From: an uncultured Gammaproteobacteria bacterium
Lineage (GTDB): Bacteria > Patescibacteriota > Patescibacteriia > Patescibacteriales > GWC2-42-12
Direction: 5' to 3'
DNA length: 51,649 nt
Assembly (NCBI GenBank): GCA_964467155.1
Contig: CAYXNZ010000003.1
Coordinates: forward strand, 1 to 51,649
The notes below the pieces were generated by a model, which had not been told where the DNA came from, did not search any database, and saw nothing but the letters and a program-made list of their open reading frames with translations. Both the position numbers and the translations under genes were made by a program. The number at the start of each line of letters is the position of its first letter. Within the stretch, counting starts at the first letter, position 1. Positions 287 to 50,637 of this stretch are shown here, piece by piece.

Positions 287-2497
287 ATGCCAAAAGAAAA
301 ATTATATCAAAGAGTGCTACAAGTAATATTTTTTATTTCTTTACTCTCTCCATTAATAGTTGATCGTCGACTATTTTTTCCTTATGTGACTAGTAGCGCT
401 TTATTTTTTAGAATGATTGTAGAGCTTCTTTTTGTTTTGTGGATTATATTTTTAATGTTTTATCCAAAATATCGACCGAGATTTAACGTATTGATTGGCG
501 CTATCAGCGCTTATTTGTTGGCGTTATTAGTATCGGTTATTTTTGGACAAGTGCCGTATTTGAGTTTCTGGGGAGATACTGAAAGGATGATGGGATTTTT
601 TAGTATTTTACATTTCTTCGCGCTATTTCTGGTTGGCATTTCAATATTTAGAGATAAAGAAGATTTAAGAAATTTAATAAAAATATTTACCATATCGTCT
701 TTGTTGGTTGCTTTATATGCCATATTTCAGAGAATGGGTTTAACTAGCATTAAACCGAGTGAAGTGAGAGTAGTGGCGACTGTTGGCAACGCCGGCGTCT
801 TGGCAAGTTATATGATTTTTAGTTTTTTCTTTTCGGCTTATTTGGCATTAACCGAAAAAATAAAATGGCAAAAAATATTATTTGGCGTTTCAACCGCCAT
901 TTTTTTATTAGTAATATTTTTGACTGGTACCAGAGGTGCTTATTTGGGTACTGGCATAGGTGTTTTATTTTCAATTTGGTTTATTATAAAAAACATTGAA
1001 CAGAAAAAAGTCAAAAAAATTATTATTTCAAGCTTGGTAGTTTTAGCCATCCTTTATTCAGTTTTGTTTGCTTTACAAAATCAGAGTTTTGTAAAAAATA
1101 ATGTTCATCTTTATCGAATCACCCATTTTTCAATCAGTGATGCCACTCTGCAAATGCGTTTTATGTCTTGGGAGTGGGGATTGAAAGGATTTTTAGATAA
1201 ACCAGTCATTGGCTATGGCTTGGAAAATTATACAGAACCTTTTAATAAATATTTTGAATCAAGATATTATGATTTATCACCAAGCATTCCGTATTTTGAC
1301 CGAGCGCATAATATCATAATTGAACTTTTATCAACTACTGGCGCGATTGGATTTGCTTCGTATTTATTATTACTTGGTGCAATTGGTTATTGTTTATTGA
1401 AGAAATATAAAGACAATAGGAATAATATTTACTTTGGTGTATTCGCTGGACTATTGATGGCTTATTTTATTCAGAATTTATTTATTTTTGATATATTGCC
1501 GGCGATGATTGGTTTTATGATATTTTTGATTGTGGTTAATAATAATTATTCATCAGATAAATCATTTTCCGACAGACCAAATCTAAAAATATATTTTATT
1601 ATCCCTATAGCATTGATTTTGATTGGCGGCTTAGGCTATTCATATAAAAATTTAATTATTACGCCCTATAAAGCTTTGAAAGACAATGTGGTTGGTCAGA
1701 TAACCATGCCTAGTAAATACGATGAAGGCATGGAGGCGCTTAAGCGTTCAGTTAGTTATAATACGGTTTTTGATTTAGATTTGAGGTCAAGTACAGCTAA
1801 TACAATCTTTAATTATTATAGAAATGGTGGTCAGAGCGAAAAAGTTGAAGAAGATTTAATTTACGCCGCCAGTTTATACGAAGAAAATTTAAAGATAGCG
1901 CCAAACGATGCTTATTACAATTATAAAACAGCAGAATTTTTAGATTATGCTTTTTCAGTTAGGTTAAATGAAGATTTAATTTCTAAATTTAAAGTATACG
2001 TTGATAAATCAATAGAAGCATCGCCAAATAGAGCTAGACTGTATTATTTGTTAGTTGATAATTTATTTATGTCGGGACAGATTGAAGAAGCAATCAAAAC
2101 TGCTGAGTATGCTGTTAGCTTGAATGATAATTTTGGTGAATCGCATTGGGAATTAGCCAAGGCCTATTATTCTTCTCAGCGATTAGACGAGGCAAAACAA
2201 GAATTTATCAGGACAATAGATCTTGGACATAAATTAAGTGAGTCATCTTTTGAACGTTTCGCTGCTTTGTTTGACATAATAGATAATACTGATAATCAGA
2301 TTGAATTTTACGAATTAATAGCAAAAAACGGTACGGATAATTATTTGCTTTATTCAACATTAGCAACTCTCTATTACCAAAAAGGAGAGTGGGAAAAGGC
2401 AATTGATATGGCCAAACAATCAGGCGTTTTAAATCCAGCAACGAGTAGTGATGTTGAATCCTTTATTAAGACTGTAAAAAATAAAATGGATAATTAA
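287..2497 (+). CDS. O-antigen ligase-like (Wzy_C) polytopic membrane protein with C-terminal TPR region
   Basis: Many TM helices, LTGTRGAY and FDRAHNIIIE motifs, helical TPR-like C-terminus. Confidence 0.8.
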   Translation: MPKEKLYQRVLQVIFFISLLSPLIVDRRLFFPYVTSSALFFRMIVELLFVLWIIFLMFYPKYRPRFNVLIGAISAYLLALLVSVIFGQVPYLSFWGDTERMMGFFSILHFFALFLVGISIFRDKEDLRNLIKIFTISSLLVALYAIFQRMGLTSIKPSEVRVVATVGNAGVLASYMIFSFFFSAYLALTEKIKWQKILFGVSTAIFLLVIFLTGTRGAYLGTGIGVLFSIWFIIKNIEQKKVKKIIISSLVVLAILYSVLFALQNQSFVKNNVHLYRITHFSISDATLQMRFMSWEWGLKGFLDKPVIGYGLENYTEPFNKYFESRYYDLSPSIPYFDRAHNIIIELLSTTGAIGFASYLLLLGAIGYCLLKKYKDNRNNIYFGVFAGLLMAYFIQNLFIFDILPAMIGFMIFLIVVNNNYSSDKSFSDRPNLKIYFIIPIALILIGGLGYSYKNLIITPYKALKDNVVGQITMPSKYDEGMEALKRSVSYNTVFDLDLRSSTANTIFNYYRNGGQSEKVEEDLIYAASLYEENLKIAPNDAYYNYKTAEFLDYAFSVRLNEDLISKFKVYVDKSIEASPNRARLYYLLVDNLFMSGQIEEAIKTAEYAVSLNDNFGESHWELAKAYYSSQRLDEAKQEFIRTIDLGHKLSESSFERFAALFDIIDNTDNQIEFYELIAKNGTDNYLLYSTLATLYYQKGEWEKAIDMAKQSGVLNPATSSDVESFIKTVKNKMDN

Positions 2498-4582: not shown

Positions 4583-4705
4583 AGACGTTGCATTGCAACG
4601 TCTCTACAATGCAACGTCTCTACAACGCAACGTCTCTACAACGCAACGTCTGTACGATGCAACGTCTGTACGATGCAACGTCTGTACGATGCAATGTCTG
4701 TACGA
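4577..4705. repeat. REP palindrome TTGTAGAGACGTTGCA-T-TGCAACGTCTCTACAA plus a tandem array of 7 x 16-nt right-arm units
   Basis: Perfect 16-bp inverted repeat at 4577-4609, overlapping the upstream TAG stop; 16-nt units at 4594-4705 drift from CTCTACAA to CTGTACGA. Confidence 0.92.
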
Positions 4706-4728
4706 TGCGGATATGATATAATATAAAA

Positions 4729-5448
4729 ATGGAGGAAATATTATTTAGAAATAAATATAGAATTAAATCGGCGCGTAGGGAAGAATATGATTATTCACAA
4801 AATGGATATTATTTTATAACGATTTGTACAAAAAATCGGGTATTATTGTTTGGTGATGTTGTAAACGATGAAATGATATTAAATAAAGCAGGAAAGATTT
4901 TAGAAAAATATTGGTTAGAAATTCCAAAACATTTTAAAAATGTAATATTGGATGAATATATTGTGATGCCAAATCATATTCATGGAATTGTTATTATCAA
5001 TAATGAAAATGATAAACGTAGAGACGTTGCAATGCAACGTCTGAACACCACAATGCAATCAAATAGAGACGTTGCCGGTGATAGAGACGTTGCCGGTGAT
5101 AGAGACGTTGCCGGTGATAGAGACGTTGCCGGTGGTAGAGACGTTGCCGGTGGTAGAGACGTTGCCGGTGGTAGAGACGTTGCAGTGCAACGTCTCTACG
5201 GGGGCGAACATATCGGGATGTCAAAAATATCGCCAAAATCAGGGACACTAGCTGTTATTATTAGATCATTTAAATCAATCGTAACAAAACAGGTAAACCA
5301 AAAATTAAAATTAGATGATATTATTTGGCAATCACGATTTTATGATCATATAATCAGGAATGAAAAATCATTAAATAGTATTAGGCAATATATAATTAAC
5401 AATCCATATAAATGGCATTTAGATCGTAATAATTTAAATTTATTGTAA
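4729..5448 (+). mobile_element. REP-associated tyrosine transposase (RAYT; IS200-like HUH/Y1 family)
   Basis: YFITICTKNR, HUH motif MPNHIHGIVII, WQSRFYDHIIR and catalytic-Tyr region RQYIINNP; cognate REPs upstream and inside the gene. Confidence 0.88.
5018..5199. repeat. In-frame REP cluster inside RAYT: palindrome 5018-5046, six 18-nt left-arm units 5064-5171, palindrome 5171-5199
   Basis: TAGAGACGTTGCCGGTG(A/G) x6 encoding (R)DVAG(D/G); flanking GTAGAGACGTTGCA-N-TGCAACGTCT palindromes. Confidence 0.92.
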
Positions 5449-5455
5449 TTAGATT

Positions 5456-7684
5456 ATGTCGCAAAAAATTTATTCAAATATATTAAAGAGCGGAATTTAT
5501 TTATCGTTTTTAATGGTTTTTATTGTTTCTAGTAAATTGCTCTACCCGTATATCACTGGTAAACAAATATTCTTTAATATTTTAATAGAAATATTATTTG
5601 TTTTTTGGATTAGCTATTTAATAAAATATCCATCAGGACGCCCAAAATTATCTTTGATTTGCTATGGATTGATAAGTTATTTCGTAGTGATTTTATTATC
5701 TTGTTTTTTTAGTGTCGATTTTAATCTCAGCTTCTGGGGAGACATTGAAAGAATGCTTGGTTTTTTTCATTTGATGCATTATCTGATTTTTTATTTTATT
5801 ATTATTACTGCTTTTAAAAGTTGGCGCGATTGGTTTTATGTTTTTTTATTGTCAGCAGGTACGGCTATAGCGGTTAGTTTTTATAGCTTGTTTAAGATTC
5901 ATTACAGTACTATCGGCAATACGGCTTATGTCAGTGGTTATATTATTTTCAACGTATTTTTTGCCTCAATTGCATATTTTAATTGGCGCAGTTTGGCTGA
6001 AAAAAATAAAAAAAACTGGGGTATTCTGCTGGGTTATATTTTCGCTATAATTTCCATGATAGCTGTTTTGAAAGCGACTAATACTCGAGGTGCTTATGTT
6101 GCTTTTGCTGTTAGTTTTATTGTCTTGGCAACTCTGATTATTTTTTTAGGAAAAAATAAAAAATTAAAACAATATTTTATAGCGTCTTCTATGGGACTTA
6201 TTTTATTGGTTAGTTTAGTGTTTGTTTACGCTGATAAACCGTTTGTAAAAAATATACCAGTTCTCAGAACAATCACTCAAATTACGCCATCAGCTACCAC
6301 TTTTCAAACTAGACTTATCTCATGGAAAGCAGCTTTGATAGATTTTCCAAATCATCCAGTCCTAGGCACGGGATTAGGAAATTTTGCGATTACTTTTGAT
6401 AAATATTTTGATCCGTCTTTTTATCGCTACACAGCTAGTGAAACATATTTTGATCGGGCACATAATAATTTAGTTGATATAATTTCGACAACTGGCTCTC
6501 TTGGGCTGATTGCTTATTTATCTATTTTTATAGCAGCTTTTTATTATTTGATGAGCGGTTACAGAAAAAGGAAAATTAGTCTATTAAATTTTGTTTTGCT
6601 AGTTTCATTAATTATTGCTTATTTTATACAGAATTTAGTTGTGTTTGATTCACAAGTTACTTATTTAGCATTAATGGTAATGCTTGGATATGTCTATTGG
6701 CTATCTCACGAGAAAGAAGAAGCTAACGATTTTAAACCATTAAATAATAAAGAAATTTTTACCATCGGTATTGTTGGTTTGATGATTTTAGGTATAATTT
6801 TTCAGTATAATTTTAAACCTTGGCAGATGATGAGAGAATCAATTAATGGGCAATATATTTTTGCTGATCAAGATATAGTTGGCGGTGTAAAAGCATATCA
6901 ACAAGCCTTGAGTTATAATACGGTATTGGATCGTGACAGTCGAACTAGCTTGATAAACATCGTTATTCCAGCTGCTGGTGTTTTAGAAAAACTTGATCGA
7001 GAAGAAGCTAAAGAGATTTTGAATTATGCAGTTGATATAGCTGAACAAAATATCAGATATAATCCACAAGACAGTATGATGCAAATGCAATTGTCACAAA
7101 TTTTGAATTTAACATCAGTTTTTTACCGCGAAGACAATTTAGATAAATTTTATTTTTATTCAGACCGAGCGCTAGAAGCAATAAATAAATCAATTGAAGT
7201 TAGCCCTGGTAGAACTAGATTGTATTTTGCTAAAGCACAGGTCTATGTCAGTCGAGATGAGTCTGATAATGCTATAAATGCTATTAATCAAGCTATTGGT
7301 TTAGACAGGGAATATGCTGAAGGATATTGTCGTTTATCAAAAGTAAATCTATTTTATCAGGATGAGACAAGTGCATTTAGTAATATGGACCAATGTTTAG
7401 CATTAGATGGAATTGGTTTTATAAATGATAATGATTTAGTTAAATACATGATAAATCATTACGCGCCTTTGAATGATTTTTCCAAGTTGGTAGTTCTGTA
7501 TGAAAAATTAGTTTCAAAAGAAAAAAATGATGCAACTTATTTCGTGAGTTTGGCTAAAATATATGCGCAGCTAGGTGAAATAGAAAAAGCAATTCAAGCA
7601 GTAGAGAAATCAGTTGAGCTAGAACCGTCTTTGAGAGAAAGCGCTAATCAGTTTATTCAACAATTAAGAAATAATAGTGGCTAA
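5456..7684 (+). CDS. Second O-antigen ligase-like/TPR membrane protein (paralog of 287-2497)
   Basis: Shared motifs SFWGD.ERM.GFF, TRGAY, YFDRAHN, Q..F.FD; TPR-like C-terminus. Confidence 0.8.
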   Translation: MSQKIYSNILKSGIYLSFLMVFIVSSKLLYPYITGKQIFFNILIEILFVFWISYLIKYPSGRPKLSLICYGLISYFVVILLSCFFSVDFNLSFWGDIERMLGFFHLMHYLIFYFIIITAFKSWRDWFYVFLLSAGTAIAVSFYSLFKIHYSTIGNTAYVSGYIIFNVFFASIAYFNWRSLAEKNKKNWGILLGYIFAIISMIAVLKATNTRGAYVAFAVSFIVLATLIIFLGKNKKLKQYFIASSMGLILLVSLVFVYADKPFVKNIPVLRTITQITPSATTFQTRLISWKAALIDFPNHPVLGTGLGNFAITFDKYFDPSFYRYTASETYFDRAHNNLVDIISTTGSLGLIAYLSIFIAAFYYLMSGYRKRKISLLNFVLLVSLIIAYFIQNLVVFDSQVTYLALMVMLGYVYWLSHEKEEANDFKPLNNKEIFTIGIVGLMILGIIFQYNFKPWQMMRESINGQYIFADQDIVGGVKAYQQALSYNTVLDRDSRTSLINIVIPAAGVLEKLDREEAKEILNYAVDIAEQNIRYNPQDSMMQMQLSQILNLTSVFYREDNLDKFYFYSDRALEAINKSIEVSPGRTRLYFAKAQVYVSRDESDNAINAINQAIGLDREYAEGYCRLSKVNLFYQDETSAFSNMDQCLALDGIGFINDNDLVKYMINHYAPLNDFSKLVVLYEKLVSKEKNDATYFVSLAKIYAQLGEIEKAIQAVEKSVELEPSLRESANQFIQQLRNNSG

Positions 7685-7714: not shown

Positions 7715-8764
7715 ATGGATATAATTAATAAAATTGAAGAAGCCGATTTGGTCGGCCGAGGTGGTGCTTGTTTTCCCGTGGCAAAGAAATGGGAAGCAGT
7801 CAAGGAAGCTAGTGGTGAAAAAAAATATGTGGTTTGCAATGCCGCTGAAGGTGAGCCTGGAGTAAGAAAGGATTTTTTTATTTTGGAAAATTATCCCGAA
7901 AAAGTTATTAGCGGAATGAAGTTGGCGATGGATTTCGTCGGCGCCAAGGAGGGTGTAATCTATTTAAATCATACATATTATAAAAAAATAGGTAAAAAAA
8001 TAGAAACGATAATTGGTGATTTACCAATTACTATATTTATAAAACCAATTAATACTGGATATATTGGCGGTGAGGCAAGTTCATTGCTTAATGCCATTGA
8101 AGGCAAAAGGATTGAACCAAGAATTCGTCCGCCTTATCCAGCTGAGTCTGGTCTCTGGGGATGTCCAACTTTGATTAATAATGTTGAGACTTTTTACAAT
8201 GTTAGTTTGGTAAATTCTGCAAATTATAATAATAAAAGATTTTTTACTGTTGGTGGAGATTGTTTAAATGAAGGAGTGTATAATTTACCCGAAAAATATA
8301 CAATCGAAAAAATATTAAAAGAAACTGATAATTATCCAAAATTTTCCTTTTTTGTCCAAGTTGGTGGTGACGGTTCAGGTGAAGTATTAAATTCGTCTCA
8401 ATTAAAGCGTCAAGCTAGTGGTGCTGGTTCAATTACTATCTACAGTATTCAAAAATACAGTTTTAAAAAAATAATTAAGAAATGGTTGGAATTTTCAAAC
8501 GAAGAATCATGCGGACAATGTACGCCTTGTCGTGAGGGTACCTATCGTTTGCTAGAAATTATTAATTCCGACGAGCAAGATTGGAAATTATTTTATGAAT
8601 TGTTGTCTAATTTGAAAGACTCTGCCTTTTGCAGTTTGGGTTGTGCTGTACCAATGCCTGTTCAAAGTTTTATAAAAAATGTAATGCCAGAAATACCGAG
8701 CAAACAATTGAAATTAAAAGAGCAAGATTTTAGTAATATTTGCCAATGTTTTAGTGCAAATTAA
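7715..8764 (+). CDS. hydB: Short NuoF/HydB-like NADH/FMN-binding subunit with one C-terminal [4Fe-4S] cluster
   Basis: GRGGACFP, CNAAEGEPG, YIGGEASSL..AIEG, PTLINNVET, SCGQCTPCREG...FCSLG; no N-terminal thioredoxin-like or C-terminal ferredoxin extension. Confidence 0.8.
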   Translation: MDIINKIEEADLVGRGGACFPVAKKWEAVKEASGEKKYVVCNAAEGEPGVRKDFFILENYPEKVISGMKLAMDFVGAKEGVIYLNHTYYKKIGKKIETIIGDLPITIFIKPINTGYIGGEASSLLNAIEGKRIEPRIRPPYPAESGLWGCPTLINNVETFYNVSLVNSANYNNKRFFTVGGDCLNEGVYNLPEKYTIEKILKETDNYPKFSFFVQVGGDGSGEVLNSSQLKRQASGAGSITIYSIQKYSFKKIIKKWLEFSNEESCGQCTPCREGTYRLLEIINSDEQDWKLFYELLSNLKDSAFCSLGCAVPMPVQSFIKNVMPEIPSKQLKLKEQDFSNICQCFSAN

Positions 8765-8789
8765 TTGATTTTTAAGTATCAAAGATAAT

Positions 8790-10514
8790 ATGGATAAAAA
8801 AGTAAAAATAAATATAAACGACAAAGAGATTGTTTGTTCTGCTAACCAGACAATTCTAGAGATCGCTTTAGAGAATGATATTTTTATACCTTCATTATGT
8901 TATCATACGGATTTTAAGCCTAGAGCTAATTGTCGAGTTTGTGTAGTGGAAATTGAAGGTAAAGAAAAATTAGCAACATCTTGTAAAACGAAAGTTAAAG
9001 ATGGAATGAAAATAAAAACTAATTCGTCACGAGTTAAGCGAGCTAGAAATTTGAATATTGAATTAATTTTTTCTGAGCATATAGAAAAATGTCCAACCTG
9101 TATTTGGCGTTACAATTGTAAATTATTAGAATTGGCAGATAAATATAAATTAGAGATTACCAGATTTAAAGACAGAAAAGCGAAACGTAAAATTTATAAA
9201 TTTGATAATGCGGTAGAAATTGATGGTACGCAGTGTATAGACTGTCGTAATTGTGTTGATGCTTGTTCAATTTTACAAAATATTAATTATTTAGAAATAC
9301 AAGGTAAGGGGGTGGAGCAGGAAATTGTACCAACTAAAGATAAAAAAATAGAATGTATAAATTGCGGTCAATGTGCGGTGCATTGTCCAGTTGGAGCAGC
9401 TCAAGAACAAACTCATTGGGAAATGGTTAGAAAGGCAATTGCAGATAAAAATAAAATAGTTATTGCGCAATTTGCTCCAGCCATCAGAGTTAGTCTGGGT
9501 GAAGAATTTGGATTACCTTATGGGAAAATAGTAGTAGATCAAATGGTAGCTGGGGCTCGTGAGCTCGGTTTTGACTATGTTTTTGATGTTAATTTTGGGG
9601 CTGATATGACAACCGTAGTTGAAGCAGAAGAGCTAATTAAGAGAATAAAGAATAAAGGCGTAATACCCATGATGACATCTTGTTGTCCAGCTTGGGTTAA
9701 ATATGTTGAGTTTTATCACCCTGAATTAATTGGTAATTTAACTATGTCTCGGTCGCCCCATATTCATAACGGCGGTATTATTAAAACGTATTGGGCAGAA
9801 AAAATGAATCTAAAACCAAAAGATATTATAGTTGTTTCTATTATGCCTTGTACTGCTAAAAAATTTGAAAGTGCTAGAAGCGAAATGAAAATTAACAGGC
9901 ATTATCCTGTTGATTATGTTTTAACCACTCGAGAATTTGCTTTTATGTTAAAAGACAATAAGATTGATTTAACAAATATTAAAAAAAGTCGAGCTGATTA
10001 TCCATTGGGAGAATATAGTGGAGCAGCCGCTATTTATGGTGGAAGTGGTGGTGTTGTAGAATCAGCGATTAGGACAGCCGAGTTTATGCTTGGCGGTAGA
10101 AAAGGTAAAGTGCAAAACAGTAAATTAAATCTAAAAGAAGTTAGGGGTTTAGCTGGAGTTAAGGAGACGACAGTTGATGTTGCCGGAAAACAAATTCGAG
10201 TAGCTGTTGTGAATGGTATTGGTAATATTGAACCAATTATAAAAAATATTAATAATTATGATTACATAGAAGTGATGGCTTGTCCTGGCGGATGTATTGG
10301 TGGTGGTGGTCAACCAATGCCAACTACCGATGAAACGAGAAAAAAGAGAATTGAAGCTTTATATAAATTAGATAAAAGTAAAAAAATAAGGAAAGCACAC
10401 GAGAATAAAAGCGTACAAGAAGTATTATCTTGGTTGAAAGAACAAGACGGAATGGAGCATAAAATTCTTCACACAACATACAAAAAAAGAAAATCAAGTA
10501 TATTTAAAGTGTAA
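8790..10514 (+). CDS. hydA: Group A [FeFe]-hydrogenase catalytic subunit with [2Fe-2S], His-ligated [4Fe-4S], 2x[4Fe-4S], H-cluster and fused small-subunit domain
   Basis: H-cluster motifs L1 TSCCPAW, L2 MPCTAKKFE, L3 EVMACPGGCIGGGGQP are all intact; HIEKCPTCIWRYNC; CIDCRNCVDAC; CINCGQCAVHCP. Confidence 0.95.
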   Translation: MDKKVKININDKEIVCSANQTILEIALENDIFIPSLCYHTDFKPRANCRVCVVEIEGKEKLATSCKTKVKDGMKIKTNSSRVKRARNLNIELIFSEHIEKCPTCIWRYNCKLLELADKYKLEITRFKDRKAKRKIYKFDNAVEIDGTQCIDCRNCVDACSILQNINYLEIQGKGVEQEIVPTKDKKIECINCGQCAVHCPVGAAQEQTHWEMVRKAIADKNKIVIAQFAPAIRVSLGEEFGLPYGKIVVDQMVAGARELGFDYVFDVNFGADMTTVVEAEELIKRIKNKGVIPMMTSCCPAWVKYVEFYHPELIGNLTMSRSPHIHNGGIIKTYWAEKMNLKPKDIIVVSIMPCTAKKFESARSEMKINRHYPVDYVLTTREFAFMLKDNKIDLTNIKKSRADYPLGEYSGAAAIYGGSGGVVESAIRTAEFMLGGRKGKVQNSKLNLKEVRGLAGVKETTVDVAGKQIRVAVVNGIGNIEPIIKNINNYDYIEVMACPGGCIGGGGQPMPTTDETRKKRIEALYKLDKSKKIRKAHENKSVQEVLSWLKEQDGMEHKILHTTYKKRKSSIFKV

Positions 10515-10524
10515 TTTTAATTAT

Positions 10525-10788
10525 ATGGAAAAACAACATCTGGCGACAATAACAATTTTAGTTAGTGATCGTCAAAATAATTCTCAACAAGTTAATGAAT
10601 TATTAGCTCAAAATGGACATTTAGTAATGGCTAGACTAGGTGTTAATGTTCAGCGTAAATGTTTTGAAAATTGTTTAGCTTTAATGACTATAGCTGTTGA
10701 TGGTACAGAAAATGAAATTAAAGAATTAACTACGAAATTAAATAATTTTTCTGGCGTAAAAGCAAAAAATAATATAATGACAAAATAA
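10525..10788 (+). CDS. TM1266-family putative iron-only hydrogenase system regulator (ACT-like fold)
   Basis: 87 aa, ITILVSDR..NSQQVNELL......VMARLGV pattern; directly follows hydA. Confidence 0.7.
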   Translation: MEKQHLATITILVSDRQNNSQQVNELLAQNGHLVMARLGVNVQRKCFENCLALMTIAVDGTENEIKELTTKLNNFSGVKAKNNIMTK

Positions 10789-10789
10789 T

Positions 10790-11323
10790 ATGTTATATTC
10801 AAAAATACAATTATTAGAAAAAATTCAATTTAAGCCAATGGCAAATTTTCTTACTTTGTCGAGTGTGGCTGTTTTTTTACCTTTTGTAATTCATATTCAA
10901 TGGATAACTGGGCCGATAGTAAATATGATTTTAATTGTGACGCTTTTTCTCGTTGGTTTAAGAAGTGCTTTAGTTTTGTGTCTAATACCTAGCTTGATGG
11001 CTTTGTCTGGTGGATTGTTACCAGCAGTTTTGGCGCCAGTCGTGCCTTTTATTATGATTAGTAATGTAATTTTGGTTTTATCAATTGATTGGTTTTATAA
11101 TAATTCAAAAAGTCAGTTTAATGGTTATCTCGGAGGTGTGATTATTGGGGCTAGTCTAAAATTTATCTTTCTTTTTTTAAGTATAGATTTTATTAGTCGT
11201 TTACTAATTAACCAAGGATTAGTTGCTAAGGTAGCACAAATGATGAGCTGGCCACAATTTGCTACGGCGATTACCGGTGGTTTATTGGCTTGGATGATAT
11301 TAAAATGGCTAAAAAGAGTGTAA
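10790..11323 (+). CDS. ECF-type S-component-like membrane protein
   Basis: About 6 TM helices, QWITGPIVN, P...MISN and terminal WPQFATAITGG; 1 nt after the previous stop. Confidence 0.55.
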   Translation: MLYSKIQLLEKIQFKPMANFLTLSSVAVFLPFVIHIQWITGPIVNMILIVTLFLVGLRSALVLCLIPSLMALSGGLLPAVLAPVVPFIMISNVILVLSIDWFYNNSKSQFNGYLGGVIIGASLKFIFLFLSIDFISRLLINQGLVAKVAQMMSWPQFATAITGGLLAWMILKWLKRV

Positions 11324-13687: not shown

Positions 13688-14641
13688 TTGAAATATGTTC
13701 ACATGAATATAGAAAATAAAATTAAACCACAATTTTTCAACCAGATGTATGGTGTTAAAGAAGATCCTCGGATTATAAATCAAGAGGAAAAACCAATTCG
13801 GTGTCAGATAATTCTAACTAATAAATGTAATTTAAATTGTTCTTTTTGTGGCACTAAAAAAAGAAATAAAAGACTTTATTTTGATAAAAAATTATTATTT
13901 AAAGCATTGAAAAATCTTTCAGAGATAGGTTGTCAAAAAATAGTATTTAATGGAGGTGGTGAGCCGTTACTATATCCTTATTTTATCGATGCTGTAAAGC
14001 AGGTAAAAAACACCGGTATGAGAGTTGGACTTGTTACTAACGGGACGTTAATAAGTAAATATAGCTCTTCGTTATGGAAAAATTTTGATAGTATAAATGT
14101 TTCTTTAAATGCTTCAAGGGGTAATTATAAAGTCGTGCATGGTATTGATAAATATAATGATGTTATTGACGGACTAAAAATGTTAAATAAAATCAATAAT
14201 TGCAAAATAGGGATTTCCTATGTTTTTTCAGAAAAGTCATCAATTAAAGATTTAAAAACCTTAATTAAAGATATAAAAAATTTTAGTATTAATCATTTGA
14301 GCATACAGAATGACGGTTTAAAACCAATAATTAATATTAAATCTAAATTGCTCAAAAGTGATTTTTTAAATATTCCTATATATTTTGACTTGGATAGAAA
14401 AATACCTAAACATTGTTTAATATATTGGTATGGGCCGAGCATTGATTGTGACGGGCTTGTTTATCCTTGCTGTACTTATCAAATAAAGAGGAGAATGCCC
14501 ATGGGTCACTGCAGTGAATTAAAAAAAATTTGGGAGGAGCATAAATATAAAGTAGACACTTCTAAATGTCTTCATTGTTATCACCGAGCAATTAATAATT
14601 TTTTGTATAAGAAAAAAATTGAATTTAAAAAGGACAAATAA
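13688..14641 (+). CDS. Radical SAM protein with C-terminal SPASM/twitch-like Cys cluster (start may be ATG 13703)
   Basis: CNLNCSFC, FNGGGEPLL, TNG; C-terminal C...DGLVYPCC...CLHCYHR. Confidence 0.8.
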   Translation: MKYVHMNIENKIKPQFFNQMYGVKEDPRIINQEEKPIRCQIILTNKCNLNCSFCGTKKRNKRLYFDKKLLFKALKNLSEIGCQKIVFNGGGEPLLYPYFIDAVKQVKNTGMRVGLVTNGTLISKYSSSLWKNFDSINVSLNASRGNYKVVHGIDKYNDVIDGLKMLNKINNCKIGISYVFSEKSSIKDLKTLIKDIKNFSINHLSIQNDGLKPIINIKSKLLKSDFLNIPIYFDLDRKIPKHCLIYWYGPSIDCDGLVYPCCTYQIKRRMPMGHCSELKKIWEEHKYKVDTSKCLHCYHRAINNFLYKKKIEFKKDK

Positions 14642-19669: not shown

Positions 19670-20035
19670 ATGGATGACACAATATCAATAAAAGAATTAA
19701 AGGAAATTATAAAAAAATTTCGTGATGAGCGAGATTGGAAGCAGTTTCATGACGCTAAAAATCTTGCTGAAGCTATTTCGATAGAAGCTGCTGAACTCCA
19801 GGAGCTTTTTTTGTGGAAAAATGTAGATGAAATTAATAATAAGATTAAGAATGAGCCGGAGTATAGAAAAAAAATTGAATATGAATTAAGTGATGTTATT
19901 ACTTTTGCGCTAAATTTAGCCAATACTCTCGATATTGATGTAGCGAAAACTATTACGGAAAAAATTAAAATAAATAATAAGAGATATCCAGTCGATAAAG
20001 CTAGAGGGACGGCGGATAAATATGATAAGTTATGA
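19670..20035 (+). CDS. MazG-like nucleotide pyrophosphohydrolase
   Basis: FRDERDWKQFH, NLAEAISIEAAELQELFLW, ELSDV, RYPVDKARG...KY. Confidence 0.88.
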   Translation: MDDTISIKELKEIIKKFRDERDWKQFHDAKNLAEAISIEAAELQELFLWKNVDEINNKIKNEPEYRKKIEYELSDVITFALNLANTLDIDVAKTITEKIKINNKRYPVDKARGTADKYDKL

Positions 20036-21888
20036 TTGTTTATAAATCAACGAAGCAGGGTTTTAGTAATGATGTGGTAACAAATAAAATTGAGACTGCT
20101 ATTTATGATATTTTTCAGAAAAAATTAAAAAGAAAGACCACGATAAATGAAATGAATTCATGGAAAAATTCAATGATGTATATGCAGAACATTTTAGAGG
20201 ATAAAGAAATTCCAAGTGATTGTGGAGTTATGATAGAATACCAAATACCTCAAACCTCAAAAAGAATAGATTTTATTTTAACAGGCAAAGACGAAAGTGA
20301 TACAGATTACGCATTAATCATAGAGTTAAAACAATGGGAAAAGGCGCAAATCACGGAGAAGGACGGAATTGTTGAAACCTTCTTGGGAAAAGCTATTCGA
20401 GAAACCCCACATCCATCCTATCAAGCATGGTCTTATGCAGCTCTTCTCGAAGGATTTAATGAAGCCGTTTATGATGGGGAAATAAAAATTAAGCCTTGTG
20501 CTTATTTGCATAATTGCGCAGAAGGATATTCACTGAGAGATGATTTTTATTCGGCATATATAGATAAAGCACCATTATTTTTAAGACCGGACGTCTTAGA
20601 ACTTAGAGATTTTATAAAAAAATTTGTAAAAAAAGGTGATAGAGGGAAAGTTATTTATGAAATAGAAAATGGCAGAATTAAGCCTTCAAAAAGTTTAGCA
20701 GATAGTTTAGTCAAAATGCTTAAGGGTAATCAAGAATTTATAATGATTGATGATCAAAAAGTTATTTTCGAGACCGCAGTTGCGCTAGCAAAACAATCTT
20801 CTAAGAAACAAAAGAATGTATTAATAATAGAAGGAGGGCCGGGAACGGGCAAGTCAGTTGTGGCAATTAATCTTTTAGTAGAATTAACCAAACATGGGTT
20901 AGTAACTAAATATGTTACGAAAAATTTAGCACCGCGTACGGTTTATGCTAGTAAGCTGACAGGTTCAATGACCAAGACAGAAATCAATAATCTTTTTACG
21001 GGATCAGGAGTTTTTACAGAAGCTAAAGATAACATTTTTGATGCTCTAGTAGTCGATGAAGCCCATCGTCTAAATGAAAGATCAGGTTTATTTAGTAATT
21101 TCGGAGAAAACCAGATAAAAGAAATAATTAAATCGTCTAAATTTTCTATATTTTTCATTGACGAAAACCAAAAGGTAACTTTTAAGGATATTGGTAGAAA
21201 AGAGGAAATAGAAAAATGGGCAAAAAAACAAGGAGCCACTATTCATACAGGTGAATTAAAGTCTCAATTTAGGTGTAATGGCTCTGACGGATATTTATCT
21301 TGGCTAGATAATATTTTACAAATTAGAGAAACCGCTAATATTGATTTACAAGACATTAATTTTGATTTTAAAGTTATTGATGATCCCAATAAACTTAGAG
21401 ATATTATTTTTGAAAAGAATAAGATTAATAATAAAGCTCGATTAATTGCGGGATATTGTTGGGACTGGGTAAGTAGAAAAAATAAAGATGTTAACGACAT
21501 TATAATTCCGGAATATAATTTTAAGATGAAGTGGAATTTAGGTAAAGACGGAAATCTTTGGATTATTGCACCTGATTCTGTGAATGAAGTTGGATGTATT
21601 CACACTTGTCAGGGACTTGAACTAGATTACGTCGGGGTTATTATTGGGAATGATCTAATTGTTAGAAATAATGAAGTTTTAGTTGATCCGTCGGCAAGAG
21701 CTAAAACAGATCAATCTCTTAAGGGTTATAAGAAATTGTTAAAAGAAAATGAAAGTGAGGCGAAAGAAAAGGCTAGGGAGATTATTAAAAATACTTATAG
21801 AACTTTACTGACTCGAGGGATGAAGGGCTGTTATGTTTATTTTACAGATAAGGAAACAGAGAGATTTTTTAAGAGTAGGATGGAGTAA
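20032..21888 (+). CDS. DUF2075 (Schlafen group-3-like) helicase with N-terminal nuclease-like region
   Basis: IDFIL...IIELKQW, GGPGTGKS, VVDEAH, SQFRCNG, CIHTCQGLELDY, YRTLLTRG; ATGA overlap with the MazG-like gene. Confidence 0.88.
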   Translation: MIVYKSTKQGFSNDVVTNKIETAIYDIFQKKLKRKTTINEMNSWKNSMMYMQNILEDKEIPSDCGVMIEYQIPQTSKRIDFILTGKDESDTDYALIIELKQWEKAQITEKDGIVETFLGKAIRETPHPSYQAWSYAALLEGFNEAVYDGEIKIKPCAYLHNCAEGYSLRDDFYSAYIDKAPLFLRPDVLELRDFIKKFVKKGDRGKVIYEIENGRIKPSKSLADSLVKMLKGNQEFIMIDDQKVIFETAVALAKQSSKKQKNVLIIEGGPGTGKSVVAINLLVELTKHGLVTKYVTKNLAPRTVYASKLTGSMTKTEINNLFTGSGVFTEAKDNIFDALVVDEAHRLNERSGLFSNFGENQIKEIIKSSKFSIFFIDENQKVTFKDIGRKEEIEKWAKKQGATIHTGELKSQFRCNGSDGYLSWLDNILQIRETANIDLQDINFDFKVIDDPNKLRDIIFEKNKINNKARLIAGYCWDWVSRKNKDVNDIIIPEYNFKMKWNLGKDGNLWIIAPDSVNEVGCIHTCQGLELDYVGVIIGNDLIVRNNEVLVDPSARAKTDQSLKGYKKLLKENESEAKEKAREIIKNTYRTLLTRGMKGCYVYFTDKETERFFKSRME

Positions 21889-21892
21889 AAAA

Positions 21893-21946
21893 GTTTATAA
21901 GTTATATGGATTAACTGATGAGGAAGTAAAAATTGTTGAAGAATAA
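21893..21946 (+). pseudogene. C-terminal remnant resembling a Type IIG restriction-modification enzyme
   Basis: Reads VYKLYGLTDEEVKIVEE*, like the terminal helix of Eco57I/TaqI-C-type proteins; no start codon or upstream body. Confidence 0.55.
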
Positions 21947-22025
21947 AAATAAAAATAAAATAGTTATCCACATTGTTTTCCTAGTACCAGGAAAACAATA
22001 ATTTAATTTAATTTTATTAAAATAC

Positions 22026-22841
22026 ATGGCAAATGAAATTGTTGTCGCTTCTTTAAATGAAGATTTTGAAAGTATAAAAAAAATAGATAAAAATGGGATT
22101 GAATACTGGGAAGCCAGAGAATTAATGCCGATTTTAGGTTACGCAAAATGGCAAAATGCAGAGGAGGTAATAGCTAGGGCGGCTAGAGCTTGCATTAATA
22201 GCGGTCAGCTTGTGGATAACCATTTTACTGGGTTTAGTAAAATGGTCAAAATTGGTTCAGATTCGGTAAGGGAAGTAAGGAATTGGAAATTGGACCGTTA
22301 TGCTTGTTATTTGATTGCTCAAAATGGTGATTCAAAAAAATCAGAAATCGCTTTGGCTCAAACATATTTCGCTATCCAAACCAGAAAACAAGAAATTTTT
22401 GAGCAACTTACTGAAGCAGACAAAAGACTTTTTATTAGAGGTGAAGTGACTGCGGAGAATAAAAAATTGTTTAGTACGGCCAAGCGAGCAGGCGTAACAA
22501 AATTTGGATCTTTTAATGACGCTGGTTATCGCGGTTTATATGGTAGGCCGTTAAATGAAATTGAAAAGAAAAAAAGCATAAGAAAAGGTGAATTGTTGGA
22601 TCGAGCTGGAAAAACTGAGTTAGCCGCTAATTTATTTCGAATTACGCAAACAGATGAGAAAATAAAGAAAGATAATATTAAGGGAAACGATCAAGCGTCA
22701 AGAACTCATTTTATGGTAGGCGGTAAAGTTCGGCAAACTATTAAAGATATCGGTGGCACAACCCCTGAAAATTTATCACCAGAGAGACATATTAAAGAAT
22801 TAAAAAGTGAAAAGAAAAAAAGTTTGAAAGAAAATAATTAA
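22026..22841 (+). CDS. dinD: DNA damage-inducible protein D (BRO-like N-terminus)
   Basis: EYWEAREL..LGY.KW, LDRYACYLIAQNGD, AQTYFAIQTR.QE, ELAANLFRITQT, VGGKVRQTI. Confidence 0.88.
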   Translation: MANEIVVASLNEDFESIKKIDKNGIEYWEARELMPILGYAKWQNAEEVIARAARACINSGQLVDNHFTGFSKMVKIGSDSVREVRNWKLDRYACYLIAQNGDSKKSEIALAQTYFAIQTRKQEIFEQLTEADKRLFIRGEVTAENKKLFSTAKRAGVTKFGSFNDAGYRGLYGRPLNEIEKKKSIRKGELLDRAGKTELAANLFRITQTDEKIKKDNIKGNDQASRTHFMVGGKVRQTIKDIGGTTPENLSPERHIKELKSEKKKSLKENN

Positions 22842-49931: not shown

Positions 49932-50005
49932 GGACGCATAGCTCAGTTGGTTAGAGCGCATGATTCACATTCATGAGGTCGAAGGTTCAAATCCCTCTGC
50001 GTCCA
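49932..50005 (+). tRNA. tRNA-Val(CAC), no encoded CCA
   Basis: GGACGCA/TGCGTCC, GCTC/GAGC, CATGA/TCATG, loop TTCACAT, T-arm GAAGG/CCCTC (one mismatch), TTCAAAT. Confidence 0.92.
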
Positions 50006-50007
50006 CT

Positions 50008-50637
50008 ATGAAAAGAAGAGTAGAAGAAATCATAATATTTTCATTTATTGCAGTTTTATTTATCCTGTCATCTTATTTGGCGCATGTTTATAGTGCGGAG
50101 TTGAGTAGTTTACCGTTACTTAATAGTCAAGCAGGTCATCTGGCGTATGTTTTAATCATGGCAGGTGCGGTTATTATAGCGCCGGCAGAGACATTGCCTC
50201 TTTTGCCAATTGCTGTTTCTATCTGGGGAGCGAATTTAGCGGCTATACTAACAATTCTTGGTTGGGTTGTTGGTTCAATGGTAGCTTTTTTTATTGCCAG
50301 AAAGTTTGGTAGAAAAATTGTACATCGTTTTGTAAAAAAATATGATATAGATGAATTAAAAGAAGCTTTGCCTAAAAAGAATTTATTTTGGGCAGTTGCC
50401 TTTGCGCGTATTTTTTTACCAGTTGATATAGTCAGCTATGCGGTTGCTTTATTTACCAGTATGCATTGGCTTGTTTATTTAACAGCGACATTGTTGGGAA
50501 CTTCAGTTTTTGCTTTTTTGTTTGCCTATGGCGCGGAATTACCAATGTATTTACAAGTAGTTGCTGGTATTATAATTATAATTTTTATTATTTTTGAATA
50601 TCGTAATATAAGAAAGCGTTTAAAAGAATTATTTTAA
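50008..50637 (+). CDS. VTT/DedA (SNARE-associated) membrane protein; start moved to ATG 50008 because the ORF-track start lies inside tRNA-Val
   Basis: LTILGWVVGSMVAFFIARKFGR, ARIFLP.DIVSY..AL, Y..ATLLG. Confidence 0.8.
   Translation: MKRRVEEIIIFSFIAVLFILSSYLAHVYSAELSSLPLLNSQAGHLAYVLIMAGAVIIAPAETLPLLPIAVSIWGANLAAILTILGWVVGSMVAFFIARKFGRKIVHRFVKKYDIDELKEALPKKNLFWAVAFARIFLPVDIVSYAVALFTSMHWLVYLTATLLGTSVFAFLFAYGAELPMYLQVVAGIIIIIFIIFEYRNIRKRLKELF

What the first reader, a model, noticed from the sequence alone, without database searches (positions are those of the whole stretch)
7715..10514. Minimal two-subunit NADH-linked [FeFe]-hydrogenase in a CPR-like genome, with non-bifurcating signatures
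Seen: intact H-cluster motifs in HydA; the partner is only 349 aa, with the FMN/NADH fold and one [4Fe-4S] motif; no HydC/NuoE gene lies adjacent. It reads EGEPGVRKD and RPPYP where bifurcating HydB typically has EGDPGAFMD and RPPFP. Established, as I recall: Lys and Tyr at these positions plus fewer FeS clusters mark non-bifurcating NADH-dependent enzymes of syntrophs (Syntrophus aciditrophicus HydAB, Syntrophomonas wolfei Hyd1ABC), which evolve H2 from NADH only at low H2. Inference: together with pgk/gpmI/eno/ackA/malic enzyme in the window, this organism may dispose of NADH as H2 and depend on an H2-consuming host or partner.
Basis: partly seen in the sequence, partly recalled or inferred. 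Interest (0 to 1): 0.75.

Follow-up and report, generated by a model that had tools for sequence, protein, structure and literature searches.

The report
NuoE-less two-subunit NADH [FeFe]-hydrogenase in CPR
A tiny uncultured (CPR/Patescibacteria) bacterium carries a stripped-down two-gene hydrogen-making enzyme that most likely burns off glycolytic NADH as H2 without the extra subunit and iron-sulfur domains that all studied relatives have, which would tie the cell to neighbours that keep H2 low.

Summary
Window 7715-8764 encodes a 349-aa NuoF-like flavoprotein and 8790-10514 a 574-aa M3-type [FeFe]-hydrogenase with every cluster ligand intact. No NuoE/HydC gene lies in the window or within about 10 kb of 63 related CPR loci.

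The HydB-like protein lacks all bifurcation-specific modules. It carries an invariant Lys (K52), Glu (E47) and Tyr (Y116) where bifurcating HydB has Met, Asp and Phe, and it lacks GGPSG. It groups away from bifurcating HydB in a rough tree.

Natural single-chain fusions of the short NuoF-like protein with HydA exist, also without NuoE. In 42 of 57 CPR loci GAPDH sits just upstream.

Open points: no HydE/F/G was seen near any locus. The window's protein alone has Ala at the position of *E. coli* NuoF Glu183, which may affect NADH/NADPH use. This is a new variant of a known kind, already present but unremarked in many public MAGs.

The parts
7715..8764 (+). hydB-like gene. It encodes a 349-aa minimal NuoF-type flavoprotein: FMN/NAD(H) site, SLBB-like middle domain and a four-helix bundle carrying one [4Fe-4S] (N3-type). 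It has no NuoE-like module, no N-terminal [2Fe-2S] domain and no C-terminal 2x[4Fe-4S] domain.
   Evidence: - Pfam: PF01512 and PF10589 only. NCBIfam nuoF_fam scores 197 bits, far below the cut-off of 558.65, and the match starts at model position 37.
- PDB: residue 1-2 aligns to residue ~154-184 of HydB chains and ~53 of Aquifex NuoF.
- AF2 model: pLDDT 91.1, pTM 0.89. Foldseek TM(query) is 0.80-0.86 to HydB, NuoF, HoxF and FdsB chains.
- Motif conservation over 179 relatives.
- A121 is unique at an otherwise invariant Glu, the equivalent of E. coli NuoF E183.
8790..10514 (+). hydA gene. It encodes a 574-aa M3-type group A [FeFe]-hydrogenase catalytic subunit: a NuoG-like N-terminus with [2Fe-2S], a His-ligated [4Fe-4S], two [4Fe-4S] clusters, the H-domain and a small-subunit-like C-terminal tail.
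   Evidence: - Pfam and NCBIfam domains.
- Best solved relatives: T. kivui HydA1 8a6t_A (483.7 bits), A. woodii HydA1 (453), then CpI (about 421).
- All cluster ligands and the L1-L3 motifs are conserved in 56-57 of 57 CPR HydA sequences.
10525..10788 (+). TM1266-like small ACT/NikR-C-like protein (87 aa), annotated elsewhere as a putative [FeFe]-hydrogenase-system regulator. It starts 10 nt after the hydA stop.
   Evidence: - Pfam PF21699 scores 51.9 bits (cut-off 27). NCBIfam TIGR03959 scores 55.6 bits, just below its cut-off of 60.8.
- It is found within 3 ORFs after hydA in 21 of 53 CPR loci.
10790..11323 (+). 177-aa membrane protein resembling the S-component of an ECF transporter, substrate unknown. 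It follows the TM1266-like gene after a 1-nt gap. Whether it belongs to the hydrogenase system is not known.
   Evidence: - The window copy alone hits PF12822 only weakly (E = 0.0062), but 31 of 31 family members hit it, with a best E-value of 3.8e-10.
- It lies within 3 ORFs after hydA in 37 of 53 CPR loci.
- It has no sequence match in the PDB.

Best explanation
The two genes encode a heterodimeric, non-bifurcating NAD(P)H:H+ oxidoreductase, the smallest version so far of the NuoF-linked [FeFe]-hydrogenases.

**Proposed mechanism (inferred from homology to complex I and HydABC).**
- NADH docks on the FMN of the 349-aa subunit and transfers a hydride.
- Electrons leave one at a time through its single N3-type [4Fe-4S].
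- They pass to the NuoG-like N-terminus of HydA, through [2Fe-2S], the His-ligated [4Fe-4S] and two [4Fe-4S] clusters, to the H-cluster, where protons are reduced to H2.
- There is no NuoE/HydC [2Fe-2S] and no ferredoxin-type arm, so there is no second electron path and no bifurcation.

**Proposed role.** In vivo it most likely serves as the NADH sink of glycolysis in a fermenter that lacks a respiratory chain. Because NADH to H2 is uphill, it can run only at H2 pressures of a few to tens of Pa. It therefore works only next to H2 consumers.

**Shown here:** gene content, cofactor motifs, family-wide conservation, absence of HydC nearby, natural HydB-HydA fusions, and synteny with gap.

**Inferred:** complex formation in this organism, NADH as donor, direction of the reaction, maturation of the H-cluster, and partner dependence.
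For: 1. **Architecture.** Only the FMN/NADH domain plus one [4Fe-4S] is present. There is no N-terminal thioredoxin-like domain and no C-terminal 2x[4Fe-4S] domain.
2. **Class-diagnostic residues.** Among 150 diverse representatives plus 7 locus sequences, all 14 proteins that carry the GAFM-type Met (12 of them also have a recognisable C-terminal 2x[4Fe-4S] arm) have EGDPGxxM, 13 of the 14 have Phe at the Nqo1-Y180 position, and most have GGPSG. The window has E47, K52, Y116 and GGDGSG. K52 and Y116 are invariant in the 177-179 close relatives.
3. **Rough NJ tree.** The short clade groups with the Lys-type NuoF and NuoE-fused forms. A split of at least 60 taxa that holds the short clade and no bifurcating-type protein appears in 94 of 100 bootstraps.
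4. **No NuoE-like ORF** in 1.04 Mb around 63 CPR loci plus the window, nor next to the pairs on contigs of 1.19 and 1.93 Mb.
5. **Rosetta-stone fusions.** P0130, P0135, P0391 and P0392 (885-918 aa) are the short NuoF-like protein fused to a full M3 HydA in one chain, only 41-43% identical to P0135, with no NuoE.
6. **Operon signs.** hydA follows hydB within 2 ORFs in 58 loci, with a median gap of 1 nt.
7. **Link to NADH production.** gap lies within 3 ORFs upstream of hydB in 42 of 57 loci (immediately upstream in 28). gap or fba does so in 46 of 57. Pyruvate kinase abuts one of the fusions.
8. **Catalytic competence.** All H-cluster and F-cluster ligands are conserved in 56-57 of 57 CPR HydA sequences. 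The AF2 model of HydB is confident and NuoF-like.
9. **Precedent.** Non-bifurcating NADH-dependent [FeFe] enzymes exist (S. wolfei, S. aciditrophicus, C. churrovis). In complex I the NuoE cluster N1a is off the main electron path, 14 A from FMN and 19.8 A from N3.
10. **Anaerobe context.** A superoxide reductase and a rubrerythrin-like gene lie just beyond the window.
Against: - No biochemical data exist for any member of this family.
- No HydE/HydF/HydG was seen in the window, in 8 kb beyond it, or within about 10 kb of any of the 63 loci. Without them the H-cluster cannot be made by any known route. Whole genomes could not be searched.
- Every characterised non-bifurcating enzyme keeps a NuoE module, so stability and activity of NuoF without NuoE is unproven.
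- Position Tm232 (V50) fits neither published class.
- The window's own protein has Ala at an otherwise invariant Glu of the NADH pocket (A121; 178 of 179 relatives have Glu). This could weaken or re-target nucleotide binding.
- In this window gap is not next to hydB. The upstream synteny is replaced by O-antigen-ligase-like genes.
- The closest solved relatives of both subunits are subunits of bifurcating complexes, although the margins are small.
Confidence: 0.62

Rival explanations
1. Same enzyme, opposite physiological direction. It acts as an H2:NAD(P)+ oxidoreductase that takes up environmental H2, which is abundant in many subsurface CPR habitats, to supply NAD(P)H.
For: - [FeFe] enzymes of this type are reversible. 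S. aciditrophicus HydAB and C. churrovis Hyd-NuoEF both reduce NAD+ with H2.
- H2 to NAD+ is the thermodynamically downhill direction (discussion).
Against: - The tight synteny is with NADH-producing glycolytic genes (gap, fba, pyk).
- No respiratory chain or obvious large NADH sink is seen in the window.
- Surveys treat Parcubacteria group A [FeFe] enzymes as fermentative.
Confidence: 0.15
2. HydA is mainly a CpI-like ferredoxin-dependent hydrogenase. The NuoF-like protein is an optional second, independent entry for NAD(P)H, giving a dual-donor but non-bifurcating enzyme.
For: - HydA has the same M3 layout and length as CpI and scores 418-424 bits against it.
- A survey lists group A [FeFe] enzymes as using ferredoxin as electron donor.
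Against: - HydA is closer to the HydA1 subunits of NuoF-linked complexes (484 and 453 bits) and to the NCBIfam 'NADH-dependent group A6' model (670.9 bits vs 545.3 for the clostridial ferredoxin type).
- hydB-hydA pairing is nearly obligate: 58 loci, plus fusions.
- No PFOR or ferredoxin gene is in the window.
Confidence: 0.12
3. A conventional electron-bifurcating HydABC whose HydC and ferredoxin-binding parts are encoded elsewhere in the genome.
For: - The closest solved structures of both subunits come from bifurcating complexes.
- A neighbour-based classifier would call a HydA next to a NuoF-like gene group A3, as was done for DPANN archaea.
Against: - The bifurcation-specific domains are parts of the HydB polypeptide itself, and they are missing here.
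- All class-diagnostic residues are of the non-bifurcating type.
- Single-chain fusions contain no such modules.
- No NuoE was found in 1.04 Mb of flanks.
Confidence: 0.04
4. Not a working hydrogenase in this organism. It is either an unmatured or relict protein, or a redox or H2 sensor, because maturases are missing and the NADH pocket is mutated.
For: - No HydEFG was found near any locus.
- A121 replaces an invariant Glu in the window protein.
- A putative regulator (TM1266-like) is adjacent.
Against: - Every catalytic and cluster ligand is strictly conserved across 57 HydA and 179 HydB-like sequences spanning 43-82% identity.
- The identical protein is found on 5 contigs from 4 samples.
- Sensory [FeFe] proteins (group C) have a different architecture (my own knowledge).
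Confidence: 0.07

Closest known systems
Syntrophomonas wolfei Hyd1ABC (non-bifurcating, NADH-dependent, ferredoxin-independent trimeric [FeFe]-hydrogenase)
   Same: - An M3-type HydA paired with a short NuoF-type beta subunit that has no extra ferredoxin-like domains.
- The beta subunit has the Lys-type NADH site, the Tyr at the Nqo1-Y180 position and no GGPSG.
- An Ignavibacteria locus with this architecture (HydC 157 aa + HydB 404 aa + HydA) was among the nearest non-CPR relatives, at 36% identity.
   Different: - The CPR enzyme has no HydC (NuoE-like [2Fe-2S]) subunit.
- Its beta subunit is about 55 aa shorter. It lacks roughly the first 35-45 residues of NuoF/HydB and several loops.
- It has Val rather than Thr/Ser at Tm232.
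Syntrophus aciditrophicus HydAB (non-bifurcating, NADH-dependent)
   Same: A two-gene enzyme that makes H2 from NADH without ferredoxin, reaching 2.2-40.2 Pa H2 at NADH/NAD+ ratios of 0.2-5.
   Different: - Its HydB is a fusion of a HydC-like domain (residues 15-152) and a HydB domain (177-585). It therefore still contains the NuoE module.
- The CPR protein is 349 aa with no such domain.
Electron-bifurcating HydABC (Thermotoga maritima, Acetobacterium woodii, Thermoanaerobacter kivui; HydDB group A3)
   Same: - These are the closest solved structures for both subunits: HydA1 at 484 and 453 bits, HydB at 158-164 bits and TM 0.81-0.85.
- The core electron path is the same: FMN, then N3, then the HydA N-terminal clusters, then the H-cluster.
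   Different: - The CPR enzyme lacks HydC, the HydB N-terminal [2Fe-2S] domain and the HydB C-terminal 2x[4Fe-4S] arm.
- It has E/K/Y where bifurcating HydB has D/M/F, and it lacks GGPSG.
Hyd-NuoEF of anaerobic fungi (Caecomyces churrovis) and the fused hydrogenase of Nyctotherus ovalis
   Same: - A non-bifurcating NADH-to-H2 route that serves as the NAD+-regenerating step of a fermenter.
- Fusion of the modules occurs in N. ovalis, as it does in the 885-918-aa proteins found here.
   Different: - These eukaryotic systems keep NuoE. The N. ovalis fusion contains alpha, beta and gamma equivalents.
- The fungal NuoF derives from mitochondrial complex I.
NuoF / Nqo1 of respiratory complex I
   Same: Same fold, FMN and NADH pocket and N3 cluster.
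   Different: - It fails the NuoF equivalog model (197 bits vs a cut-off of 558.65).
- It has no NuoE partner and no nuo operon.
- It is paired with a hydrogenase.

Membership tests
[FeFe]-hydrogenase, group A (catalytic subunit) | H-cluster binding motifs L1 (TSCCPxW), L2 (MPCxxKxxE) and L3 (ExMACxxGCxxGGGQP) | tested here: met
   The window has TSCCPAW, MPCTAKKFE and EVMACPGGCIGGGGQP. These are conserved in 56-57 of 57 CPR homologues.
[FeFe]-hydrogenase, group A (catalytic subunit) | Score above the curated cut-off of TIGR02512 | tested here: met
   458.7 bits against a cut-off of 405.95.
NCBIfam NF040763 'NADH-dependent [FeFe] hydrogenase, group A6' | Score above the curated cut-off (765 bits) | tested here: not met
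   670.9 bits. This is the best-scoring model, ahead of the clostridial ferredoxin type at 545.3 bits, but it is below the cut-off.
Non-bifurcating NADH-dependent multimeric [FeFe]-hydrogenase (criteria of Losey et al. 2020) | Beta subunit without the additional [Fe-S] domains of bifurcating HydB | tested here: met
   Only PF01512 and PF10589 are found. No CxxCxxCxxxC motifs follow the N3 cluster.
Non-bifurcating NADH-dependent multimeric [FeFe]-hydrogenase (criteria of Losey et al. 2020) | Lys/Ser/Ala rather than Met at T. maritima HydB position 234 | tested here: met
   K52 is invariant in 177/177 relatives. Met occurs in 14/14 bifurcating-type representatives.
Non-bifurcating NADH-dependent multimeric [FeFe]-hydrogenase (criteria of Losey et al. 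2020) | Thr/Ser rather than Ala/Glu at T. maritima HydB position 232 | tested here: not met
   The window has V50. The family has Val 142, Ile 23 and Leu 12, which matches neither class.
Non-bifurcating NADH-dependent multimeric [FeFe]-hydrogenase (criteria of Losey et al. 2020) | Tyr rather than Phe near the FMN site (the NADH-bonding Tyr of Nqo1) | tested here: met
   - Y116 in 'GYIGGE' is present in 179/179 relatives. Phe occurs in 13/14 bifurcating-type representatives.
- The paper's printed number (367) does not match a Phe in chain 7p5h_B. I therefore mapped the position from the paper's stated rationale, and this mapping is my inference.
Non-bifurcating NADH-dependent multimeric [FeFe]-hydrogenase (criteria of Losey et al. 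2020) | No GGPSG in the SLBB region | tested here: met
   The window has VGGDGSGE. The family has GG[D/N/E]ASG and never GGPSG.
Non-bifurcating NADH-dependent multimeric [FeFe]-hydrogenase (as characterised: S. wolfei, S. aciditrophicus, C. churrovis) | A NuoE/HydC-type [2Fe-2S] module, either separate or fused | tested here: not met
   It is absent from the window, from 63 related loci (1.04 Mb in total) and from the natural fusions. Whole genomes were not searchable.
Non-bifurcating NADH-dependent multimeric [FeFe]-hydrogenase | NADH-dependent, ferredoxin-independent H2 production | not testable with these tools
   This requires enzymology.
Electron-bifurcating HydABC (group A3) | HydC subunit; HydB with an N-terminal [2Fe-2S] domain and a C-terminal 2x[4Fe-4S] domain | tested here: not met
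   None of the three is present.
Electron-bifurcating HydABC (group A3) | HydDB-style rule: a group A HydA with a NuoF-like gene next to it | not tested
   HydDB was not available. By gene neighbourhood alone the pair would probably be labelled A3, as was done for DPANN archaea. I regard that label as misleading here.
NuoF of complex I (TIGR01959 equivalog) | Score above the curated cut-off; nuo operon context | tested here: not met
   197.1 bits against a cut-off of 558.65. There are no nuo genes nearby.
TM1266 family (putative [FeFe]-hydrogenase-system regulator) | Score above the curated cut-off | tested here: inconclusive
   Pfam PF21699 scores 51.9 bits, above its cut-off of 27. NCBIfam TIGR03959 scores 55.6 bits, below its cut-off of 60.8.

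The most novel reading that the evidence does not exclude
Much of the CPR uses the smallest natural NAD(P)H-linked [FeFe]-hydrogenase known. It is a NuoE-free alpha-beta enzyme, and in some lineages a single chain. It is genetically wired to GAPDH as the main NADH sink of glycolysis. This would make these cells thermodynamically dependent on neighbours that scavenge H2.

In the window organism, a natural Ala at the position of E. coli NuoF Glu183 may additionally open the site to NADPH.
Probability: 0.45. Interest if true: 0.75.

Novelty: new variant of a known kind. Interest (0 to 1): 0.6.

Why it matters
- **A physiological basis for partner dependence.** If the pair works as proposed, it explains how many respiration-less CPR fermenters re-oxidise glycolytic NADH. 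It also gives a concrete and testable reason for their dependence on partners: H2 must stay at a few to tens of Pa.
- **NuoE would be shown dispensable.** A NuoF-type flavoprotein could feed a hydrogenase without NuoE. That bears on the debated role of the off-pathway N1a cluster. It also offers a compact two-gene (or one-gene) NADH-to-H2 module for engineering.
- **Annotation.** Neighbour-based classifiers would probably call these enzymes 'bifurcating group A3', which would misstate the H2 and ferredoxin budgets inferred for CPR-rich communities.

Tried and rejected
- **HydE/F/G.**
  - Pfam scans of window ORFs of at least 90 aa found only a radical-SAM/SPASM protein (13688-14641) with no HydE/HydG match in NCBIfam.
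  - A CxxxCxxC scan of all ORFs in the 63 loci found only RlmN-like proteins.
  - Candidates picked by size in several loci were unrelated.
  - Non-CPR HydABC loci gave no maturase seed either.
  - Whole-genome searches were not possible.
- **Walking along the parent contig.** About 8 kb past the 3' end showed glycosyltransferases, a superoxide reductase, TspO and a ferritin-like gene. Nothing new was found at the 5' end.
- **Literature.**
  - I found no description of a NuoE-less HydAB in CPR. Only survey-level mentions of group A [FeFe] hydrogenases in Parcubacteria/Patescibacteria turned up.
  - The Morina et al. 2011 paper on NuoF E183 is not held.
- **Promoter and terminator scan.** Uninformative in this AT-rich DNA.
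- **ECF-S-like protein.** A profile search against PDB sequences gave no match, so no substrate could be assigned.
- **Fold search.** It does not separate bifurcating from non-bifurcating relatives; all score TM 0.80-0.86.
- **Exact short clade.** The 27-member short clade has poor bootstrap support (2/100) because fringe members move. Only the separation from bifurcating types is stable.
- **Membrane protein next to a fusion.** The 240-aa protein downstream of P0135 is not related to the membrane protein found between hydB and hydA in other loci.

Full report
**1. What is in the sequence**

- Window 7715-8764 (+) encodes a 349-aa protein. After a 25-nt gap, 8790-10514 (+) encodes a 574-aa protein.
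- The first protein matches only the NuoF FMN/NADH domain (PF01512, residues 7-164) and the NuoF [4Fe-4S] region (PF10589, 253-327).
  - It scores 197 bits on the NuoF equivalog model, whose cut-off is 558.65, and the match begins at model position 37.
- The second protein is a complete M3-type [FeFe]-hydrogenase. It has a [2Fe-2S] domain, a His-ligated [4Fe-4S], two [4Fe-4S] motifs, the H-domain and a small-subunit-like tail.
  - It passes the group A model TIGR02512 (458.7 vs 405.95).
  - It scores best, though below cut-off, on the 'NADH-dependent group A6' model (670.9 vs 765). The clostridial ferredoxin type scores 545.3.
- Downstream lie a TM1266-like 87-aa gene (10525-10788) and a 177-aa membrane protein (10790-11323). 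They follow at gaps of 10 nt and 1 nt.

**2. Whose genome it is**

- GC content is an even 30-39% across the window.
- LepA from the far end of the window has named best hits only in Patescibacteria, Falkowbacteria and Parcubacteria, at 75-80% identity.
- The HydB-like protein has more than 7000 homologues. The top 120 are 328-378 aa long and 57-82% identical, and every organism-level name among them is a CPR group apart from one labelled only 'bacterium'.
- CPR origin is therefore confirmed.
- The exact protein occurs on 5 contigs from 4 samples.

**3. The pair is a conserved CPR module**

A scan of one genome per species returned 63 CPR loci at 43-82% identity, plus genuine nuo and HydABC loci as outgroups. 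I clustered all ORFs in these loci.

- hydA follows hydB within two ORFs in 58 loci, with a median gap of 1 nt. Of the five CPR loci with no hydA called, four end at or just after hydB; one (L043) continues downstream without a recognisable hydA.
- GAPDH (confirmed by Pfam) lies within three ORFs upstream of hydB in 42 of 57 loci, and immediately upstream in 28.
- GAPDH or class II aldolase lies there in 46 of 57 loci.
- The ECF-S-like protein follows hydA in 37 of 53 loci, and the TM1266-like gene in 21 of 53.
- In this window and in its closest relative L001, the gap-containing upstream block is replaced by O-antigen-ligase-like genes.

**4. No HydC anywhere near**

- A tblastn search and an HMM built from 10 NuoE proteins of the outgroup loci found nothing in 1.04 Mb of CPR flanks.
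- The same short HydB + HydA pair, again without NuoE, sits on contigs of 1.19 and 1.93 Mb.
- Four proteins of 885-918 aa, only 41-43% identical to P0135, are single-chain fusions of the short NuoF-like module and a full M3 HydA.
  - One of them is directly preceded by pyruvate kinase.
  - These fusions are strong evidence that the two window proteins work together and need no third redox subunit.

**5. Bifurcating or not**

Losey et al. (PMC7311640) separate bifurcating from non-bifurcating beta subunits by four criteria:
- extra Fe-S domains;
- residues 232 and 234 of *T. maritima* HydB;
- a Phe/Tyr near the FMN;
- GGPSG in the SLBB region.

I aligned 150 diverse representatives (50%-identity clusters) and 7 locus proteins to the CPR core.

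| Position | 14 Met-type (bifurcating-type) proteins, 12 of them with a recognisable C-terminal 2x[4Fe-4S] arm | Other proteins | Window |
|---|---|---|---|
| EG[D/E]PG | Asp 14/14 | mostly Glu | E47 |
| Tm234 | Met 14/14 | Lys 133/140 | K52, invariant in 177/177 close relatives |
| Nqo1-Y180 position | Phe 13/14 | Tyr 136/140 | Y116, invariant in 179/179 |
| SLBB motif | GGPSG in most | other | GGDGSG; GGPSG never occurs in the family |

- Position 232 is Val/Ile/Leu in the family, which fits neither published class.
  - It is Phe in 153 of 179 family members.
  - It splits 7/7 within the bifurcating class.
- The paper's printed '367' does not coincide with a Phe in the deposited *T. maritima* chain, which has F312 in GAGAF and F337 in PPFP. 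Its stated rationale is the Tyr that hydrogen-bonds NADH in Nqo1. My assignment of that Tyr to Y180 is from my own knowledge, and the mapping is my inference.
- A rough neighbour-joining tree places the short clade, fusions included, among the Lys-type NuoF and NuoE-fused forms.
  - 94 of 100 bootstraps keep it apart from the bifurcating cluster.
  - The exact clade boundary is unstable.

**6. Structure**

- The AF2 model is confident (pLDDT 91.1, pTM 0.89).
- It superposes on HydB, NuoF, HoxF and FdsB chains at TM 0.80-0.86. The core is a complete NuoF fold.
- Sequence alignment shows it starts where residue ~53 of Aquifex NuoF, or ~154-184 of HydB chains, begins.
- It lacks 33-43 N-terminal residues relative to short HydB and NuoF.
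- That the lost segment is part of the NuoE interface is my inference from known structures.

**7. How it probably works**

- The path is NADH, then FMN, then N3, then the HydA N-terminal clusters, then the H-cluster, as in complex I and HydABC.
- In complex I the NuoE cluster N1a is off this path, 14 A from FMN and 19.8 A from N3. It has been tied to control of reactive oxygen. Its loss in a strict anaerobe is therefore plausible; this step is inference.
- With no ferredoxin arm, bifurcation by the known mechanism is excluded.
- Published non-bifurcating enzymes reach only 2.2-40.2 Pa H2, against about 1000 Pa for bifurcating ones. H2 evolution would therefore need an H2-consuming neighbour.
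- The synteny with gap, fba and pyk argues that the physiological role is NAD+ regeneration.

**8. Caveats**

- **Maturases.** No HydE/F/G was seen in the window, in 8 kb beyond it, or near any locus. Whole genomes could not be searched.
- **NuoE.** All characterised non-bifurcating enzymes keep a NuoE module. *S. aciditrophicus* HydB has it fused, and the fungal enzyme uses NuoEF.
- **A121.** The window protein alone has Ala at residue 121, where 178 of 179 relatives have Glu.
  - By counting along the alignment to *E. coli* NuoF, this is Glu183.
  - From memory (Morina et al. 2011, J Biol Chem 286:34627; not held, so unverified here), changes at E183 let complex I use NADPH.
  - Among 42 short-class representatives, 11 have a non-Glu residue there, against 1 of 112 in the other classes.
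  - Nucleotide preference may therefore vary in this family.

**9. Novelty**

- Group A [FeFe]-hydrogenases in Parcubacteria/Patescibacteria MAGs are mentioned in surveys.
- DPANN archaea have been described with trimeric, NuoE-containing 'A3' enzymes.
- I found no description of a NuoE-less NuoF-HydA pair, of its fusions, or of its linkage to gap.
- The genes are common in public MAGs under generic names.
- I rate it a new variant of a known kind, of moderate to good interest.

Noticed in passing
window 8075-8077 (codon 121 of the 7715-8764 ORF): The HydB-like protein has Ala in 'GGEASS' where 178 of 179 close relatives have Glu. The position equals E. coli NuoF Glu183 and Nqo1 Glu185 in the NADH pocket. 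The identical protein is seen on 5 contigs from 4 samples, so this is not a sequencing error. It may signal altered NADH/NADPH preference; that reading rests on my memory of a paper that is not held.
   Followed up: partly
window 10790-11323; the same gene family in 37 of 53 related loci: An ECF-transporter S-component-like membrane protein is conserved right after hydA and the TM1266-like gene. Its substrate is unknown. A flavin or another cofactor precursor is a tempting but untested guess.
   Followed up: partly
L015, L027, L030, L035, L038-L041, L046, L057, L059, L060, L063 (between hydB and hydA): In 12-14 CPR loci an ORF of mostly about 250 aa (range 202-452), multi-pass membrane-like by sequence, with no Pfam match (one member tested), is inserted between hydB and hydA. 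It is absent from the window.
   Followed up: partly
protein P0139 (702 aa, JGI metagenome): A short NuoE-less NuoF-like module is fused to an Oxidored_q6 domain ([NiFe]-hydrogenase small subunit / NuoB-like). The minimal diaphorase may therefore also serve [NiFe] enzymes.
   Followed up: no
window 4600-4708 and 5063-5183, in and before ORF 4729-5448: There are two tandem repeat arrays: 16 nt x 6.8 copies and 18 nt x 6.7 copies. The second lies inside an IS200/Y1-transposase-like ORF, where it encodes 'RDVAG[DG]' repeats.
   Followed up: partly
window 287-2497 and 5456-7684: Two paralogous proteins of about 740 aa combine an O-antigen-ligase (Wzy_C) domain with TPR repeats. They flank a CARDB-domain protein. 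This block replaces the rpsB-tsf-PSP1-gap block found upstream of hydB in most relatives.
   Followed up: partly
window 39397-40971 and 40978-42564: Two tandem genes encode cofactor-independent phosphoglycerate mutase (524 and 528 aa). The same pair occurs in locus L005.
   Followed up: no
window 42591-43643: The acetate kinase is only 350 aa and matches the Pfam profile from position 64 onward. The upstream ORF ends 27 nt before it, so the N-terminus appears genuinely shortened.
   Followed up: no
window 19670-22841: A MazG-like protein, a Schlafen-group-3-type helicase (618 aa, E = 7e-109) and a Bro-N-domain protein sit together next to a stretch with near-zero GC skew (16-20 kb). This may be a mobile or defence-related insert.
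   Followed up: no
window 13688-14641: A radical-SAM/SPASM protein (317 aa) lies 3 kb downstream of hydA. It is not HydE/HydG-like by NCBIfam, where the best hit is a tungsten-cofactor maturase-type model at 84 bits against a cut-off of 380. It clustered with no ORF in the 63 related species loci and recurs only on another contig of the same population (L086).
   Followed up: partly
window 49932-50006 vs ORF 49960-50637: tRNA-Val overlaps the listed start of the VTT-domain ORF, so the true start codon is probably further downstream.
   Followed up: no
L081 15502-16638 (contig continuation 3' of the window): A desulfoferrodoxin-type superoxide reductase, TspO and an encapsulated-ferritin/rubrerythrin-like gene lie here. 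These are oxygen-defence genes typical of a strict anaerobe.
   Followed up: no
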